Source: a virus (Duplodnaviria; Heunggongvirae; Uroviricota; Caudoviricetes). From it: 17,587 nucleotides of DNA. How positions within the stretch are numbered: position 1 is the first letter of the stretch; each line of letters opens with the position of its first letter. Shown piece by piece: positions 8,396 through 16,610 of this stretch. The notes below the pieces were generated by a model. The model was not told the origin of the DNA and ran no database searches. It was given only the letters and a program-made list of their open reading frames with translations. The position numbers and the translations under genes were made by a program. The stretch lies in IMG/VR virus record IMGVR_UViG_2660238360_000004; one strand, 5' to 3'.

Positions 8396-10367
8396 TTCCT
8401 GGTTCAGGATGCAGGCTGGTCACCAGAGTGACGCGGATATTTATATTTATGACGAGATTGGTTTCTGGGGTGTTACAGCGAAGCAGTTTATCAGTGATCT
8501 GAATGCACTGGGCGATATCACCCACATTAATCTCCATATTAATTCACCGGGTGGCGATGTCTTTGAAGGCATCGCCATTTTTAATGCGCTGAAAACACAT
8601 GGTGCGTCCATTACCGTTTATGTCGACGGTGTGGCGGCGTCAATGGCGTCGGTCATTGCGATGGTGGGAAACCCGGTCATTATGCCGGAAAACACCTTCA
8701 TGATGATTCATAAACCATTTGGCTTTACGGGCGGTGATGCGGAGGACATGCGCACCTATGCCGACCTGCTCGATAAAGTTGAGGCGGTTCTGTTACCCGC
8801 TTATGCACAGAAAACCGGGAAAACCACCGATGAAATTGCTGCCATGCTGGCGGATGAGACCTGGATGTCCGGTGCCGAATGTCTGGCACATGGATTTGCT
8901 GATCAGGTAACGCCAGCCGTTAAGGCAATGGCATGTATTCAGTCAAAACGTACAGAGGAATTTAAAAAGATGCCGGAATCCATTCGAAACATGATTACTC
9001 CGCCACGCAACAGTGCTCCACGCGTACAGGATAATGAACCTGAAGCCTCCCGGACGCCAGTGCAGGCAGCAGCACCCGTGGTGGATGAAAACAGCATCCG
9101 TGCGCAGGTACTGGCAGAGCAAAAAGCGCGTGTAAACGGTATTAATGATCTGTTTGCCATGTTTGGCGGGCGTTATCAGACGCTGCAGGCTCAGTGTCTT
9201 GCCGATCCTGAATGTTCGCTGGAGCAGGCCCGCGAAAAGCTGTTGAACGAGATGGGGCGCGAGTCCACGCCATCCAATAAAAATACCCCGGCTCATATTT
9301 ATGCCGGTAACGGTAATTTTGTGGGGGACGGGATCCGCCAGGCGCTGATGGCGCGTGCCGGATTTGAAAAAACCGAACGTGATAATGTCTACAACGGGAT
9401 GACCCTGCGTGAATATGCCCGTATGTCACTGACTGAACGGGGTATTGGGGTTTCCAGTTATAACCCGATGCAGATGGTCGGTGCGGCGTTCACACACAGT
9501 ACGTCTGACTTCGGTAATATTCTGCTGGATGTTGCGAACAAAGCCATTCTGCAGGGCTGGGAAGATGCCCCTGAAACCTATGAACAGTGGACGCGGAAAG
9601 GTCAGTTGTCTGATTTTAAAATTGCCCATCGTGTGGGTATGGGTGGCTTCAGTGCTCTGCGTCAGGTGCGTGAAGGGGCGGAATATAAATACGTCACCAC
9701 CGGAGATAAACAGGCCACTATTGCACTGGCGACCTATGGCGAGCTGTTCAGTATCACCCGTCAGGCCATTATCAATGATGATCTGAATATGCTGACCGAT
9801 GTCCCGATGAAACTGGGCCGTGCGGCGAAATCCACTATTGCCGATCTGGTTTATGCCATTCTGACGTCTAACCCGAAAATCTCCACAGATAATGTAAGTC
9901 TGTTCGATAAAGCGAAACATGCAAACGTACTGGAGAGCGCTGCAATGGACGTGGCATCGCTGGATAAAGCCCGCCAGTTGATGCGCGTTCAGAAAGAGGG
10001 GGAGCGTCATCTGAATATTCGTCCTGCGTTCGTACTGGTACCGACGGCGATGGAGTCTGTTGCTAACCAGGTCATTCGCTCCTCAAGTGTCAAGGGGGCT
10101 GACATTAACGCCGGTATTATTAACCCGGTGAAAGATTTTGCGACCGTTATTGCAGAGCCTCGTCTTGATGATAACAGCCAGACCACCTTCTACCTGGCTG
10201 CGTCAAAAGGCTCCGATACGATTGAAGTGGCTTATCTCAACGGTGTGGATACGCCATATATTGATCAGATGGAGGGCTTCAGTGTGGATGGCGTGACAAC
10301 GAAAGTGCGTATTGACGCCGGTGTCGCGCCAGTTGATCACCGCGGTCTGGTGAAATGTACGGCGTAA
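8340..10367 (+). CDS. Fusion protein: ClpP-like (S14) prohead protease, helical scaffold-like linker, HK97-fold major capsid domain
   Basis: One uninterrupted frame. The N-terminal region has ClpP-type motifs (INSPGGDV, a Ser in VAASMASV, a His in MIHKP). The middle is Ala/Gln/Glu-rich and helical. The C-terminal roughly 350 aa look like a major capsid protein. Start is uncertain: GTG at 8340 has AAGGAGG 5 nt upstream; ATG at 8409 is the alternative. Confidence 0.85.
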   Translation: MPQRNDMSRSTPTTSPKNNSWFRMQAGHQSDADIYIYDEIGFWGVTAKQFISDLNALGDITHINLHINSPGGDVFEGIAIFNALKTHGASITVYVDGVAASMASVIAMVGNPVIMPENTFMMIHKPFGFTGGDAEDMRTYADLLDKVEAVLLPAYAQKTGKTTDEIAAMLADETWMSGAECLAHGFADQVTPAVKAMACIQSKRTEEFKKMPESIRNMITPPRNSAPRVQDNEPEASRTPVQAAAPVVDENSIRAQVLAEQKARVNGINDLFAMFGGRYQTLQAQCLADPECSLEQAREKLLNEMGRESTPSNKNTPAHIYAGNGNFVGDGIRQALMARAGFEKTERDNVYNGMTLREYARMSLTERGIGVSSYNPMQMVGAAFTHSTSDFGNILLDVANKAILQGWEDAPETYEQWTRKGQLSDFKIAHRVGMGGFSALRQVREGAEYKYVTTGDKQATIALATYGELFSITRQAIINDDLNMLTDVPMKLGRAAKSTIADLVYAILTSNPKISTDNVSLFDKAKHANVLESAAMDVASLDKARQLMRVQKEGERHLNIRPAFVLVPTAMESVANQVIRSSSVKGADINAGIINPVKDFATVIAEPRLDDNSQTTFYLAASKGSDTIEVAYLNGVDTPYIDQMEGFSVDGVTTKVRIDAGVAPVDHRGLVKCTA

Positions 10368-12808: not shown

Positions 12809-12832
12809 GCCCCGGTTATCCGGGGCTTTTTT
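12809..12832 (+). terminator. Intrinsic terminator (or attenuator) between the major tail gene and the tail chaperone genes
   Basis: Perfect 7-bp GC hairpin GCCCCGG-TTAT-CCGGGGC followed by TTTTTT, 20 nt after the gpV-like stop. Confidence 0.6.
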
Positions 12833-12848
12833 GCAGGTGGAGAACATG

Positions 12849-13235
12849 ATGTTTCTGAAACAGGGCACGTTTAATTATGAAAAGCAGTCCGTGGTGCTCA
12901 GTGAGCTGTCCGGGCTGCAGAGAATTGAATATCTGGCGTTTGTTCAGCAGCGAACGGCAAAGTTTGATGCCGAAGAGGGAGAACTGCCGGAGGCTGAACG
13001 ACAGATTGCTTTTCTGCGGATGGGGATGGATATCAATGCCTGGCTGGTTTCCCGCTCACTGTGGAATGCGGAACAGTCTCAGGATGTTGAGACGCTTTGC
13101 GCATCCGTTATTACAACATGGTCGTATGATGCCCTGGGAGCGGGGGCGGAGATGGTTCTGTCGCTGAGCGGTATGGGAGCCATTGAGAATGCCGGGGATT
13201 TGGAGCATGAGGTGCTGACGCCGGAAAAGTCCTGA
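12849..13235 (+). CDS. gpG-like tail assembly chaperone (start 12846 or 12849)
   Basis: MFLKQGTFNYEKQSVVLSELSGLQRIEYLAF is collinear with recalled lambda gpG (MFLKTESFEHNGVTVTLSELSALQRIEHLAL). GGTGGAG upstream of the ATG. Confidence 0.85.
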   Translation: MFLKQGTFNYEKQSVVLSELSGLQRIEYLAFVQQRTAKFDAEEGELPEAERQIAFLRMGMDINAWLVSRSLWNAEQSQDVETLCASVITTWSYDALGAGAEMVLSLSGMGAIENAGDLEHEVLTPEKS

Positions 13236-13573
13236 CGCGGGAAATGCAGTTTGTCATGCGGCTTGCCCGGGAGTTCAGGCGGGCAGACTGGCGGCGGATG
13301 CTGTCGGAAATGTCGGCCACTGAGCTTGGTGAGTGGGGCGATTATTTCCGGATGCAGAGCTTCAGTGATGTGTGGATGGATGCGCAGTTTGCCTCGCTGA
13401 AGGCATTGATCGTGAGAATGGTGTCCGGCAGCAGTGATGCTGCGGTGGCTGATTTCAGCCTTTTACCGGAAGAGAACGGGATACCGGAGCGAACGGACGA
13501 AGAACTGATGCATCTTGGGGAAGGTATTTCCGGAGGTGTGCGTTATGGACCAGATAGCCAACCTGGTCATTGA
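13223..13573 (+). CDS. gpT-like segment, expected to be made only as a G-T fusion after a -1 ribosomal frameshift near 13223-13229
   Basis: The -1 frame relative to the gpG-like gene is open from 13211 to 13573 and overlaps the end of that gene. It has no convincing start of its own until the ATG at 13244. The heptamer GGAAAAG at 13223-13229 sits where lambda has its G-T slippery site (GGGAAAG). Confidence 0.65.
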   Translation, partial: GKVLTREMQFVMRLAREFRRADWRRMLSEMSATELGEWGDYFRMQSFSDVWMDAQFASLKALIVRMVSGSSDAAVADFSLLPEENGIPERTDEELMHLGEGISGGVRYGPDSQPGH

Positions 13574-16500
13574 TTTGGGGATTGATGCGGCAGAGTTTAA
13601 AAATGAAATTCCCCGTATCAAAAACCTTCTGAATGGTGCAGCCAGCGATGCAGAACGGTCTTCTGCCCGTATGCAGCGTTTTATGGAGCGTCAGACTCAG
13701 GCCGCCCGGCAGACAACGCAGGCGGCGTCTTCGGCTGCAACAGCCGCATCCGTCCATGCGCAGACGGTGGAGAAGAACGCACAGGCTCATGAACGCATGG
13801 CCCGCGAGGTGGAGAAAACCCGCCAGCGTATGGAGGCACTGAGCCAGAAAATGCGCGAGGAACAGGCGCAGGCCATGGCTCTGGCGGAGGCTCAGGATAA
13901 AGCAGCTGCTGCGTTTTATCGTCAGATTGACAGTGTGAAACAGGCCAGTGCGGGGCTGCAGGAATTACAGCGTATTCAGCAGCAGATCCGACAGGCCAGA
14001 AACAGTGGCGGGATTGGTCAGCAGGATTATCTGGCGCTGATTTCTGAGGTTACGGCGAAAACCCGTGTTCTTACGCAGGCTGAGGAAGAGGCTACCCGAC
14101 AGAAAGTGGCGTTTATCCGTCAGCTTAAAGAGCAGGCAACCCGCCAGAATCTTTCTTCTTCTGAGTTGCTTCGTGCTAAGGCTGCCCAGCTGGGGGTAAG
14201 CAGTGCTGCAGAAGTGTATATCCGCAAAATGGAGCAGGCAGGAAAAGCCACGCATTCGCTGGGTCTGAAAAGTGCAGCGGCCCGCCAGGAGATAGGCGTT
14301 CTGATAGGTGAACTGGCCCGCGGCAATTTAGGGGCGCTGAGGGGATCCGGGATAACGCTGGCTAACCGTGCCGGATGGATAGACACTCTGATGTCACCGA
14401 AAGGCATGATGCTTGGCGGGGTTATTGGCGGTATTGCCGCGTCCGTCTATGGTCTGGGTAAAGCCTGGTATGACGGTCAGAAGGAGGGGGAAGAATTTAA
14501 CCGCCAGTTGTCGCTGACGGGGCATTATGCCGGAGTCACTGCCGGGCAGCTGTGGACGCTCAGTCGTGCTATTTCCGGGAATGGTATCACGCAACATGCT
14601 GCAGCCGGTGTGCTGGCTCAGGTGGTGGGGAGTGGTGCATTTCGTGGAAACGATATCGGTATGGTGGCGAGAGCTGCCGCACAGATGGAGCGATCGGTTG
14701 GCCAGTCGGTCAGCGATACCATAAATCAGTTTAAGCGGCTGAAGGATGATCCTGTAAATGCCGCGAAGGCTCTGGACAATGAGCTGCATTTTCTTACTGC
14801 CACTCAGCTTGAGCAGATACGTGTCCTTGGGGATCAGGGACGGTCCAGTGATGCTGCACGGATAGCCATGTCTGCACTGGCAGAGGAAACCGGTCGGCGT
14901 ACTGCGGATATTGATAATAACCTCAATGCGCTTGGCAGTACGCTGAAGTATCTGTCTGATTTATGGAGTCGTTTCTGGGATGCGGCCATGAATATTGGTC
15001 GTGAAGACTCGCTGGATGAACAGATTGCCGCTTTACAGGAGAAAGTGTCGCGGGCGAAAAGACTCCCCTGGACGGCATCATCTTCTCAGGTTGAATACGA
15101 TCAGCAGCGTCTTAACGATCTTCAGGAGAAAAAACGCCAGAAGGATTTGCAGGATGCAAAAGAGCAGGCAGAGCGGAATTATCAGGAGCAACAGAAACGA
15201 CGTAATGCTGAAAATGCTGCACTGAACCGGATGAATGAAACGGAAGCAGCACGACATCAGCGTGAAATTGCGCGTATTAATGCCATGCAGTACGCCGATC
15301 AGGCTGTCAGGGATGCAGCGATACAACGTGAAAATGAACGTTACGAGAAAGCCCTGGCATCCGGTAAGAAAAAAACACGCGAAACCCGTAATGATGAGGC
15401 CACCCGGTTATTGCTGCAGTACAGTCAGCAACAGGCACAGGTGGAAGGACAGATTGCTGCTGCAAGACAGTCAGCAGGCATTGCCACTGAAAAGATGACA
15501 GAAGCGCATAAACAGCTTCTGGCTCTGCAGCAGCGCATCAGCGATCTGGACGGGAAAAAACTGACGGCAGATGAAAAGAGTGTGCTGGCCCGTAAAGATG
15601 AACTGATTCAGGCACTGACGCTGCTGGATGTAAAACAGCAGGAGCTTCAGAAACAGACGGCACTCAACGATCTGAAGAAAAAAACAATTCAGCTGACCAG
15701 TCAACTGGCTGAAGAAGAGCTCGCTCAGCGTCAGCAACATGACCTGGATATCGCCACGGTGGGTATGGGTGATCAGCAGCGGCAGCGATATCAGGTACAA
15801 CTGAGTCTTCGCCAGAAATACCAGCAACAGCTGGAGCAGTTGAGGCGGGATAGTGAGCAGAAAGGGACATATAACACGGATGACTACAGAAAGGCCGAGC
15901 AGGCGCTGACGGAGAGCCTGAACCGACAACTGAATGAGAATCGCCGTTACTGGCAACAGCTTGAAGTTGTGCAGGGTAACTGGAAAAACGGAGTCCTGCG
16001 TGCATTTCAGGATTTTACCGTGGATGCAGACAATACGGCAGGAACAGCAGAACAGGTGTTCTCGTCAGCCTTCAGCAACATGGGAAATGGCCTGGCAACT
16101 TTTGTCACTACCGGCAAACTCAACTTCAAATCCTTCACCTCTTCGGTGCTGTCAGATATGGCGAAAATCCTGGCGCAGGCAACCATGATGAAATCGATAA
16201 AAGGGATTGGCAGTGTACTGGGATTTGATCTCAGCAGCCTTTCCCTGAATGCCAATGGGGGGATTTATCAGTCTGCTGATTTGAGTCGTTACAGTGGCAC
16301 GGTGGTTAACCGTCCGACGTTTTTTGCTTTTGCAAAAGGCGCGGGTGTGATGGGGGAAGCGGGACCTGAAGCCATTCTGCCACTGCGTCGTGGTGCTGAC
16401 GGTAAGCTGGGGGTTGTGGCGGATATTGGTGGTTCAGGTATGGCGATGTTTGCCCCGCAGTACAACATCGAGATCAATAACGATGGCACGAACGGGCAGA

Positions 16501-16610
16501 TAGGTCCGGCTGCCCTGAAGGTGGTTTATGACCTTGGGAAAAAAGCGGCAGCGGACTTTATGCAACAGCAGGCCCGTGATGGTGGTCGGTTAAGTGGAGC
16601 ATATCGGTAA
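13545..16610 (+). CDS. Tail tape measure protein, lambda gpH family
   Basis: 1021 aa from an ATG with GGAGGTG 6 nt upstream. N-terminus DQIANLVIDLGIDAAEF matches lambda gpH VGDLVVDLSLDAARF. Long Ala/Gln/Glu/Arg-rich coiled-coil centre. C-terminus NIEINNDGTNGQIGPAALKVVYDLGKKAAADFMQQQARDGG matches lambda gpH VVINNDGTNGQIGPAALKAVYDMARKGARDEIQTQMRDGG. Confidence 0.95.
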   Translation: MDQIANLVIDLGIDAAEFKNEIPRIKNLLNGAASDAERSSARMQRFMERQTQAARQTTQAASSAATAASVHAQTVEKNAQAHERMAREVEKTRQRMEALSQKMREEQAQAMALAEAQDKAAAAFYRQIDSVKQASAGLQELQRIQQQIRQARNSGGIGQQDYLALISEVTAKTRVLTQAEEEATRQKVAFIRQLKEQATRQNLSSSELLRAKAAQLGVSSAAEVYIRKMEQAGKATHSLGLKSAAARQEIGVLIGELARGNLGALRGSGITLANRAGWIDTLMSPKGMMLGGVIGGIAASVYGLGKAWYDGQKEGEEFNRQLSLTGHYAGVTAGQLWTLSRAISGNGITQHAAAGVLAQVVGSGAFRGNDIGMVARAAAQMERSVGQSVSDTINQFKRLKDDPVNAAKALDNELHFLTATQLEQIRVLGDQGRSSDAARIAMSALAEETGRRTADIDNNLNALGSTLKYLSDLWSRFWDAAMNIGREDSLDEQIAALQEKVSRAKRLPWTASSSQVEYDQQRLNDLQEKKRQKDLQDAKEQAERNYQEQQKRRNAENAALNRMNETEAARHQREIARINAMQYADQAVRDAAIQRENERYEKALASGKKKTRETRNDEATRLLLQYSQQQAQVEGQIAAARQSAGIATEKMTEAHKQLLALQQRISDLDGKKLTADEKSVLARKDELIQALTLLDVKQQELQKQTALNDLKKKTIQLTSQLAEEELAQRQQHDLDIATVGMGDQQRQRYQVQLSLRQKYQQQLEQLRRDSEQKGTYNTDDYRKAEQALTESLNRQLNENRRYWQQLEVVQGNWKNGVLRAFQDFTVDADNTAGTAEQVFSSAFSNMGNGLATFVTTGKLNFKSFTSSVLSDMAKILAQATMMKSIKGIGSVLGFDLSSLSLNANGGIYQSADLSRYSGTVVNRPTFFAFAKGAGVMGEAGPEAILPLRRGADGKLGVVADIGGSGMAMFAPQYNIEINNDGTNGQIGPAALKVVYDLGKKAAADFMQQQARDGGRLSGAYR

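What the first reader, a model, noticed from the sequence alone, without database searches (positions are those of the whole stretch)
13211..13250. G-T programmed -1 frameshift with a non-canonical slippery heptamer
The gpT-like frame is open only from 13211 and overlaps the last 8 codons of the gpG-like gene, so the shift must occur within 13211-13233. The only candidate heptamer is G_GAA_AAG, not lambda's G_GGA_AAG. After a -1 slip the P-site tRNA would need a G-U pair at the middle position, which predicts either lower efficiency or a different mechanism. The conserved G to G-T ratio is required for correct tail assembly.
Basis: partly seen in the sequence, partly recalled or inferred. Interest (0 to 1): 0.4.

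Follow-up and report, generated by a model that had tools for sequence, protein, structure and literature searches.

The report
Known G-T tail-chaperone frameshift site
This is the ordinary lambda-type tail-chaperone G/G-T programmed -1 frameshift of a very common E. coli prophage, and its "odd" slippery sequence GGAAAAG is already annotated as the slip site at the same junction in phages N15 and phi80.

Summary
The G-like gene (12846-13235, PF06894) ends at TGA 13233-13235. The T-like frame (PF06223) is the -1 frame and is open only from 13211. The only in-phase slip motif in the overlap is G_GAA_AAG (13223-13229).

The frameshift reading is well supported:
- The fused product aligns with lambda gpGT straight through the junction (PEK|VLTREMQF against AGK|VFDGELSF).
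- All seven heptamer bases are invariant in 35 unique relatives, while the 60 nt upstream are about 70% identical.
- The ATG at 13244 has no ribosome-binding site and is not conserved.

It is not new. GenBank records of N15 and phi80 mark exactly GGAAAAG as the "slippery sequence for -1 translational frameshift" at their G/T junction. Gifsy-1 carries the identical CCGGAAAAGTCCTGA, and its T is annotated as a frameshift product.

G_GAA_AAG, G_GGA_AAG and A_AAA_AAG alternate at this position across the family. In vitro, G GAA AAG is less slippery than G GGA AAG (Peng 2019), so its efficiency in vivo is still unmeasured.

One modest addition is a Shine-Dalgarno-like GAGGTG 8-10 nt upstream. It is positionally enriched in this clade and could be a dnaX-style stimulator. 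This is untested.

About 1830 of 5426 complete E. coli genomes carry this junction, with T annotated as a separate gene.

The parts
12846..13235 (+). gpG-like tail assembly chaperone gene in frame 0 (ATG 12846 or 12849; RefSeq uses 12849), stop TGA at 13233-13235
   Evidence: Translation. PF06894 Phage_TAC_2, E = 1.8e-39. RefSeq product 'phage tail assembly chaperone G'. SD CAGGUGG, -7.2 kcal/mol.
13208..13210 (+). TGA in the -1 frame; sets the upstream limit for the shift
13209..13214 (+). Shine-Dalgarno-like GAGGTG, 8-10 nt 5' of the heptamer; candidate upstream stimulator (inferred, untested)
   Evidence: Anti-SD duplex of -9.3 kcal/mol; only 4% of same-size windows in G+T are as strong. 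In 17 lineages of the clade the mean duplex energy peaks at distances 8-10 nt.
13223..13229 (+). Slip site G_GAA_AAG (P-site GAA, A-site AAG)
   Evidence: Homologous in position to lambda G_GGA_AAG. The same heptamer is annotated as the slippery sequence in N15 and phi80.
13229..13573 (+). T extension read in the -1 frame after the slip (first codon GTC at 13229-13231; stop TGA at 13571-13573). Predicted G-T fusion of 242 aa.
   Evidence: PF06223 Phage_tail_T, E = 5e-15. The -1 frame motif K-[VA]-[LFVM]-x-x-E-x-x-F is conserved from the slip site onward.
13244..13246 (+). ATG used by RefSeq and GenBank as the start of a separate T gene; probably not a real start
   Evidence: Annotation. No SD (-1.1 kcal/mol). 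Not conserved in Salmonella, Gifsy-1, Symbiopectobacterium or lambda relatives.
13545..16610 (+). Tape measure (gpH-like) gene; its start overlaps the T 3' end and has a strong SD GGAGGTG inside T
12809..12832 (+). Hairpin plus T-run terminator between the V-like and G-like genes (context)
   Evidence: Annotated at the same place in Ayreon, mEp460 and N15.

Best explanation
A small fraction of ribosomes translating the gpG-like gene slip back one base on G_GAA_AAG (13223-13229) and continue in the -1 frame. This gives a 242-aa G-T fusion (...LTPEK|VLTREMQF...). The remaining ribosomes stop two codons later and make G (128-129 aa). As in lambda, G and the G part of G-T would coat the tape measure protein, while the T part recruits the major tail protein.

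The main driver of the slip is the single E. coli tRNA-Lys moving from AAG to AAA. The P-site tRNA-Glu re-pairs with GGA through G:C, a middle G.U, and A:U. This re-pairing is weaker than in lambda's G_GGA_AAG.

In this clade an SD-like GAGGTG 8-10 nt upstream may raise the yield by pairing with 16S rRNA, as in dnaX.

Shown: the gene and frame layout, homology across the junction, conservation of the heptamer, and the lack of an independent start. Inferred: that the fusion is made, its level, tandem as opposed to single-tRNA slippage, and the role of the SD-like element.
For: - PF06894 lies in frame 0 and PF06223 in frame -1.
- The gene order is V-like, G, T, tape measure.
- The fused product aligns with lambda gpGT over 251 columns, with the K|V junction in register.
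- All seven heptamer bases are invariant in 35 unique clade sequences, against about 0.7 identity upstream.
- The heptamer is also present in six further lineages.
- The same heptamer occurs at the same junction in N15, phi80, mEp043, an Enterobacter Ravinvirus, a Klebsiella phage, a Providencia phage and Symbiopectobacterium.
- The base before GAA is always G, although the codon differs (CCG, GCG, CTG). This fits P-site re-pairing.
- N15 and phi80 records annotate GGAAAAG as the slippery sequence. Gifsy-1's T is annotated as a frameshift product.
- ATG 13244 lacks an SD and is not conserved.
- A_AAG is the most shift-prone tetramer in E. coli.
- A G:GT ratio of about 30:1 is needed in lambda, so a low-efficiency site is sufficient.
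- The SD-like element is positionally enriched.
Against: - No protein data exist for this phage group.
- In a reconstituted E. coli system, AUG GAA AAG gave mainly 0-frame product and was used as the 'less slippery' control.
- A_AAG without a stimulator is barely above background in vivo.
- No significant downstream RNA structure was found (z = -1.3 and -1.0), and there was no Rfam match.
- The SD-like element is absent from N15- and phi80-type sites that use the same heptamer. The lineages compared are related, so the enrichment is not a formal probability.
Confidence: 0.9

Rival explanations
1. The frameshift is the same and the product is the same, but only tRNA-Lys slips on A_AAG (A-site slip, or P-site slip while the UCC codon waits). 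tRNA-Glu plays no re-pairing role, so the 'heptamer' is really a tetramer.
For: A_AAG is the best tetramer in E. coli and reaches 5.6% with a stimulator. [quoted passage not shown]
Against: The G at heptamer position 1 is invariant across CCG, GCG and CTG contexts in at least five divergent groups, and GAA is never GAG. That conservation is not needed for a pure tetramer slip. GAA and CCG are, however, also common E. coli codons.
Confidence: 0.3
2. T is made as a separate 109-aa protein from ATG 13244, as RefSeq and GenBank annotate it. This would be by its own initiation or by termination-reinitiation after the G stop 9 nt upstream.
For: The annotation shows separate G and T CDSs. An in-frame ATG lies 9 nt after the G stop in the E. 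coli subclade.
Against: The ATG has no SD: -1.1 kcal/mol, against -5.6 to -12.6 for neighbouring genes. It is replaced by ATT, CTT, CTG or CGT in Salmonella, Gifsy-1 and Symbiopectobacterium relatives and by CTG in lambda. Conservation in the -1 frame starts at the heptamer, upstream of the ATG. From established knowledge, lambda T is made only as G-T (Levin et al. 1993, cited).
Confidence: 0.05
3. The frame break is a mutation, a decaying prophage or a sequencing error, or the fusion arises by RNA polymerase slippage on the A run.
For: None specific. The A4 run is the only homopolymer at the site.
Against: The same layout is found in viable phages (Ayreon, mEp460, cdtI, phi458), in about 1830 complete E. 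coli genomes and throughout the family. Four A's are far shorter than the runs known to give transcriptional slippage (established knowledge; A7 and T7 runs are discussed).
Confidence: 0.02

Closest known systems
Phage lambda G / G-T programmed -1 frameshift (G_GGA_AAG; Levin, Hendrix and Casjens 1993; Xu, Hendrix and Duda 2004, 2013)
   Same: The same protein families (PF06894 and PF06223), the same gene order V-G-T-H, and a slip site at the homologous codon pair. The fused products are 34% identical and collinear through the junction.
   Different: One base differs in the heptamer (GGA to GAA), so the P-site re-pairing has a middle G.U. The 0-frame stop comes 1 codon after the heptamer instead of 5. 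An SD-like element lies 8-10 nt upstream and has no counterpart in lambda.
Phage N15 genes 14/15 and phage phi80 gpG-T
   Same: The identical heptamer GGAAAAG at the G/T junction is explicitly annotated as 'slippery sequence for -1 translational frameshift'.
   Different: The G proteins are only about 33% identical to this one. The preceding codon is GCG, not CCG. The 0-frame continues 5 codons after the site. There is no SD-like element in the 5-13 nt window.
Salmonella phage Gifsy-1 STM2596/STM2595
   Same: It belongs to the same clade (55% G identity) and has an identical 15-nt site, CCGGAAAAGTCCTGA. Its T is annotated as 'part of ... gpG by translational frameshifting'.
   Different: It has no ATG at the position of 13244 (CTG instead), and its SD-like element is weaker (AAAGGAC, -5.3 kcal/mol).
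E. coli dnaX -1 frameshift (A_AAA_AAG with an upstream SD-like sequence and a downstream stem-loop)
   Same: The A-site slip is AAG to AAA by the single tRNA-Lys. An SD-like sequence lies about 10 nt upstream of the heptamer.
   Different: dnaX has a fully slippery P-site codon and a strong downstream hairpin. Here there is no significant downstream structure. The purpose also differs: dnaX makes a truncated product, whereas this site makes an extended one.

Membership tests
Lambda-type tail assembly chaperone G/G-T frameshift | The upstream ORF is a gpG-family chaperone lying between the major tail gene and the tape measure gene | tested here: met
   PF06894, E = 1.8e-39. Neighbouring genes.
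Lambda-type tail assembly chaperone G/G-T frameshift | The T domain is encoded in the -1 frame, overlaps the 3' end of G, and has no start of its own | tested here: met
   PF06223 in the -1 frame. ATG 13244 has no SD and is not conserved.
Lambda-type tail assembly chaperone G/G-T frameshift | An in-phase slip site lies inside the overlap at the position of lambda's site and is conserved among relatives | tested here: met
Lambda-type tail assembly chaperone G/G-T frameshift | The slip site is a canonical X_XXY_YYZ heptamer | tested here: not met
   G_GAA_AAG has XXY = GAA. This is not disqualifying, because N15 and phi80, which are accepted members, carry the same heptamer.
Lambda-type tail assembly chaperone G/G-T frameshift | The G-T fusion protein is made at a few per cent of G and is needed for tail assembly | not testable with these tools
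   This needs a reporter assay, mass spectrometry or genetics.
dnaX / IS911-type stimulated -1 frameshift | An SD-like sequence lies about 10-14 nt 5' of the heptamer | tested here: inconclusive
   GAGGTG at 13209-13214 gives -9.3 kcal/mol. It is positionally enriched in the clade (10 of 17 lineages at or below -7 kcal/mol, against 3 of 17 in adjacent windows). The lineages are related and its function is untested.
dnaX / IS911-type stimulated -1 frameshift | A stable hairpin or pseudoknot lies 5-9 nt 3' of the heptamer | tested here: not met
   The folds of 13230-13330 and 13230-13280 are not better than shuffled sequence (z = -1.33 and -0.97). No Rfam hit.

The most novel reading that the evidence does not exclude
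In this large E. coli / Salmonella prophage clade, the weak heptamer G_GAA_AAG is made usable by a conserved Shine-Dalgarno-like element placed 8-10 nt upstream (GAGGTG in this window). It would work as in dnaX, but without any downstream structure. The element is kept at the RNA level through different codon combinations in a poorly conserved protein linker. It would set the G:G-T ratio. To my knowledge this has not been described for tail chaperone frameshifts.
Probability: 0.35. Interest if true: 0.35.

Novelty: already known. Interest (0 to 1): 0.2.

Why it matters
The scientific value is limited, because the G-T frameshift and this exact heptamer are already on record for N15 and phi80, and for Gifsy-1 in the same clade.

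Practical value:
- About a third of complete E. coli genomes (1832 of 5426) carry this junction with T annotated as a stand-alone gene starting at a non-conserved ATG with no ribosome-binding site. The annotation should be a joined G-T CDS.

Mechanistic value:
- This is an abundant natural case of a site that in vitro work treats as poorly slippery.
- Measuring its efficiency in vivo, and testing the upstream SD-like element, would show how much P-site mispairing a bacterial frameshift site can tolerate.
- It would also show whether the G:G-T ratio differs between lambdoid tail modules.

Tried and rejected
- **Downstream stimulatory structure:** folds of 13230-13330 and 13230-13280 are no better than shuffled sequence. 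Rejected as a supported feature.
- **Known RNA families:** no meaningful Rfam match in 13050-13450.
- **Independent T start:** rejected on RBS strength and lack of conservation.
- **SD-like element as general compensation for G_GAA_AAG:** rejected. N15, phi80, mEp043 and the Providencia phage use the heptamer without such an element. It remains only a clade-specific possibility.
- **Literature in the held library:** full-text searches for GGAAAAG with 'frameshift' or 'slippery' found only Peng et al. 2019. Xu, Hendrix and Duda 2004 is not held, so I could not check whether that paper lists this heptamer or tested it.
- **Wasted scans:** two viral-contig scans returned only near-identical copies. 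The scan with alignment A1 returned copies of this window's G and the scan with lambda G returned copies of lambda. The genome-contig scan gave only 11 loci.
- **Single-ORF G-T proteins in the database (P0032, P0046):** these are in-frame deletion fusions seen on single contigs, not evidence about the slip.

Full report
**Context.** The window is a lambdoid prophage of E. coli.
- The 1-kb stretch around the finding is 97-99.8% identical to phages phi458, Ayreon, cdtI and mEp460.
- It is more than 95% identical to a site in 1848 of 5426 complete E. coli genomes.
- The gene order is tail terminator (U-like), major tail protein (V-like), G, T, tape measure.

**The observation.** Read directly from the sequence:
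- The G-like ORF runs from ATG 12846 or 12849 to TGA 13233-13235.
- The -1 frame has a TGA at 13208-13210 and is open from 13211 to 13573.
- The overlap holds the 0-frame codons GTG CTG ACG CCG GAA AAG TCC TGA.
- G_GAA_AAG sits at 13223-13229 in the phase needed for tandem slippage.
- It is the only in-phase heptamer or tetramer candidate in the overlap.
tRNA-Glu would face GGA with a middle G.U, and Peng et al. 2019 say the same.

**What it is.**
- Frame 0 matches PF06894, the lambda gpG tail assembly chaperone (E = 1.8e-39). The -1 frame matches PF06223, minor tail protein T (E = 5e-15).
- If the ribosome slips on the heptamer, the product is a 242-aa fusion. It aligns with lambda gpGT over its whole length (34% identity, E = 1e-41), with the junction in register...TPEK|VLTREMQF against ...SAGK|VFDGELSF.
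- The site is therefore the positional homologue of lambda's G_GGA_AAG and differs from it by one transition.

**Comparative evidence.** I collected about 370 loci and reduced them to unique sequences.
- In the clade of this window (G identity 100% down to about 40%; E. coli, Shigella, Salmonella, Symbiopectobacterium) all seven heptamer bases and the preceding C are invariant in 35 unique sequences. The 60 nt upstream average about 0.7 identity and encode a variable acidic linker.
- Six more lineages fetched one at a time also carry the heptamer.
- It recurs in other branches of the family: N15, phi80, mEp043 and an Enterobacter Ravinvirus (GCG_GAA_AAG), a Klebsiella phage (GCG_GAA_AAG), and a Providencia phage (CTG_GAA_AAG followed directly by TAG).
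- Lambda, Stx2a phages and Serratia or Symbiopectobacterium prophages have G_GGA_AAG. Stx1a phages have A_AAA_AAG. Some metagenomic relatives have GCA_AAA_TAG.
- The base before GAA is always G, whatever the codon. This is expected if tRNA-Glu must re-pair with GGA.
- In the -1 frame, the pattern K-[VA]-[LFVM]-x-x-E-x-x-F is conserved from the slip site onward.

- ATG 13244, which RefSeq and GenBank use as the T start, has no Shine-Dalgarno sequence. Its best anti-SD duplex is -1.1 kcal/mol, against -7.2 for G, -12.6 for the tape measure gene, and -5.6 and -6.8 for the next two genes.
- The ATG is replaced by ATT, CTT, CTG or CGT in Salmonella, Gifsy-1 and Symbiopectobacterium relatives, and lambda has CTG there.
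- A mutation or sequencing error is excluded, because viable phages and about 1830 genomes share the layout.
- Four A's are too few for transcriptional slippage (established knowledge).

**Is it known? Yes.**
- The N15 record marks 10027-10033, which reads GGAAAAG, as 'slippery sequence for -1 translational frameshift'.
- The phi80 record does the same for 10194-10200 and gives a joined gpG-T CDS.
- Gifsy-1 belongs to this window's clade and has the identical CCGGAAAAGTCCTGA. Its T is annotated as 'part of bacteriophage tail assembly chaperone gpG by translational frameshifting'.
- PRFect lists non-canonical 'twofour' motifs among annotated phage frameshifts and discusses G.U re-pairing of tRNA-Glu on GGA.
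- I could not read Xu, Hendrix and Duda 2004, so I do not know whether this heptamer was tested experimentally.

**How it probably works.**
- E. coli has one tRNA-Lys for both AAA and AAG, and A_AAG is the most shift-prone tetramer in E. coli. It is near background alone and reaches 5.6% with a strong stimulator. G_GGA_AAG alone gives about 0.3%, rising to a few per cent in a good 3' context.
- In a reconstituted system, AUG GAA AAG gave mainly 0-frame product and served as the 'less slippery' control next to G GGA AAG.
- Lambda needs only about one G-T per 30 G, so a weak site can be sufficient.
- I found no significant downstream structure (z = -1.33 and -0.97) and no Rfam match.

**A possible upstream stimulator.**
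- An SD-like GAGGTG at 13209-13214 is fully complementary to CACCUC of 16S rRNA (-9.3 kcal/mol). When both are aligned on the 16S sequence, its spacing to the heptamer (about 11 nt) is close to that in dnaX (about 10 nt).
- Only 4% of same-size windows in G+T are as strong.
- Across 17 lineages of the clade, the mean anti-SD energy peaks at 8-10 nt from the heptamer: -6.2 to -6.4 kcal/mol, against -1 to -3.7 at most other distances.
- 10 of 17 lineages reach -7 kcal/mol in the 5-13 nt window, against 3 of 17 in the neighbouring windows.
- The element is built from different codons in different lineages: GAG-GTG, CAG-GAG, GCG-GAG-GCT, CAG-GTG-ACG.
- Cautions: the lineages are related, the linker is rich in Glu and Gly codons, and N15- and phi80-type sites lack the element. 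I rate this a clade-specific hypothesis at about 0.35, not a finding.

**Verdict.**
- It is an ordinary, already recorded variant of the lambda-type G/G-T frameshift.
- What remains open is quantitative: how efficient G_GAA_AAG is in vivo, whether both tRNAs slip, and whether the upstream SD-like element matters.
- The main practical point is that T is mis-annotated as a separate gene in about a third of complete E. coli genomes.

Noticed in passing
window 13209-13214 (and the equivalent position in L182, L186, L362-L367 and others): An SD-like element (GAGGTG here; GGAGG, AGGAGG or CAGGTGA in relatives) lies 8-10 nt 5' of the heptamer. It is positionally enriched in 17 lineages of this clade and is made from different codons in different lineages. 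It is absent from N15-, phi80- and lambda-type sites. It may be a dnaX-like upstream stimulator.
   Followed up: partly
window 12809-12832: A GC-rich hairpin (GCCCCGG-TTAT-CCGGGGC) followed by T6 lies between the major tail (V-like) gene and G. A terminator is annotated at the same place in Ayreon, mEp460 and N15. It would lower G/T/H transcription relative to V.
   Followed up: partly
window 13244-13573; RefSeq records such as NZ_OZ547461.1: PGAP and most phage records annotate T as a separate CDS starting at ATG 13244. About 1830 of 5426 complete E. coli genomes carry this junction. The ATG has no RBS and is not conserved, so this looks like a systematic mis-annotation of a frameshift product.
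   Followed up: yes
L187, L190 (IMG/VR metagenomic contigs); L355 (Stx1a phage); L354 (Providencia phage PSTCR8lys): Other slip-site types occur at the same G/T junction. These are GCA_AAA_TAG (an A_AAA slip next to a stop), A_AAA_AAG in Stx1a phages, and CTG_GAA_AAG followed directly by TAG in the Providencia phage.
   Followed up: no
proteins P0032 (215 aa) and P0046 (212 aa): These are single-contig proteins that carry both PF06894 and PF06223 in one ORF. Their sequences show in-frame deletions of the G linker that fuse G directly to T (for example ...WSYDA|GKVLTREMQF). They could be natural hard-wired G-T fusions or assembly artefacts.
   Followed up: partly
window 13545-13573: The tape measure gene starts at ATG 13545 inside the last 10 codons of T. 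A very strong SD, GGAGGTG (-12.6 kcal/mol), is embedded in the conserved GGVRYG C-terminal motif of T, which lambda shares.
   Followed up: no
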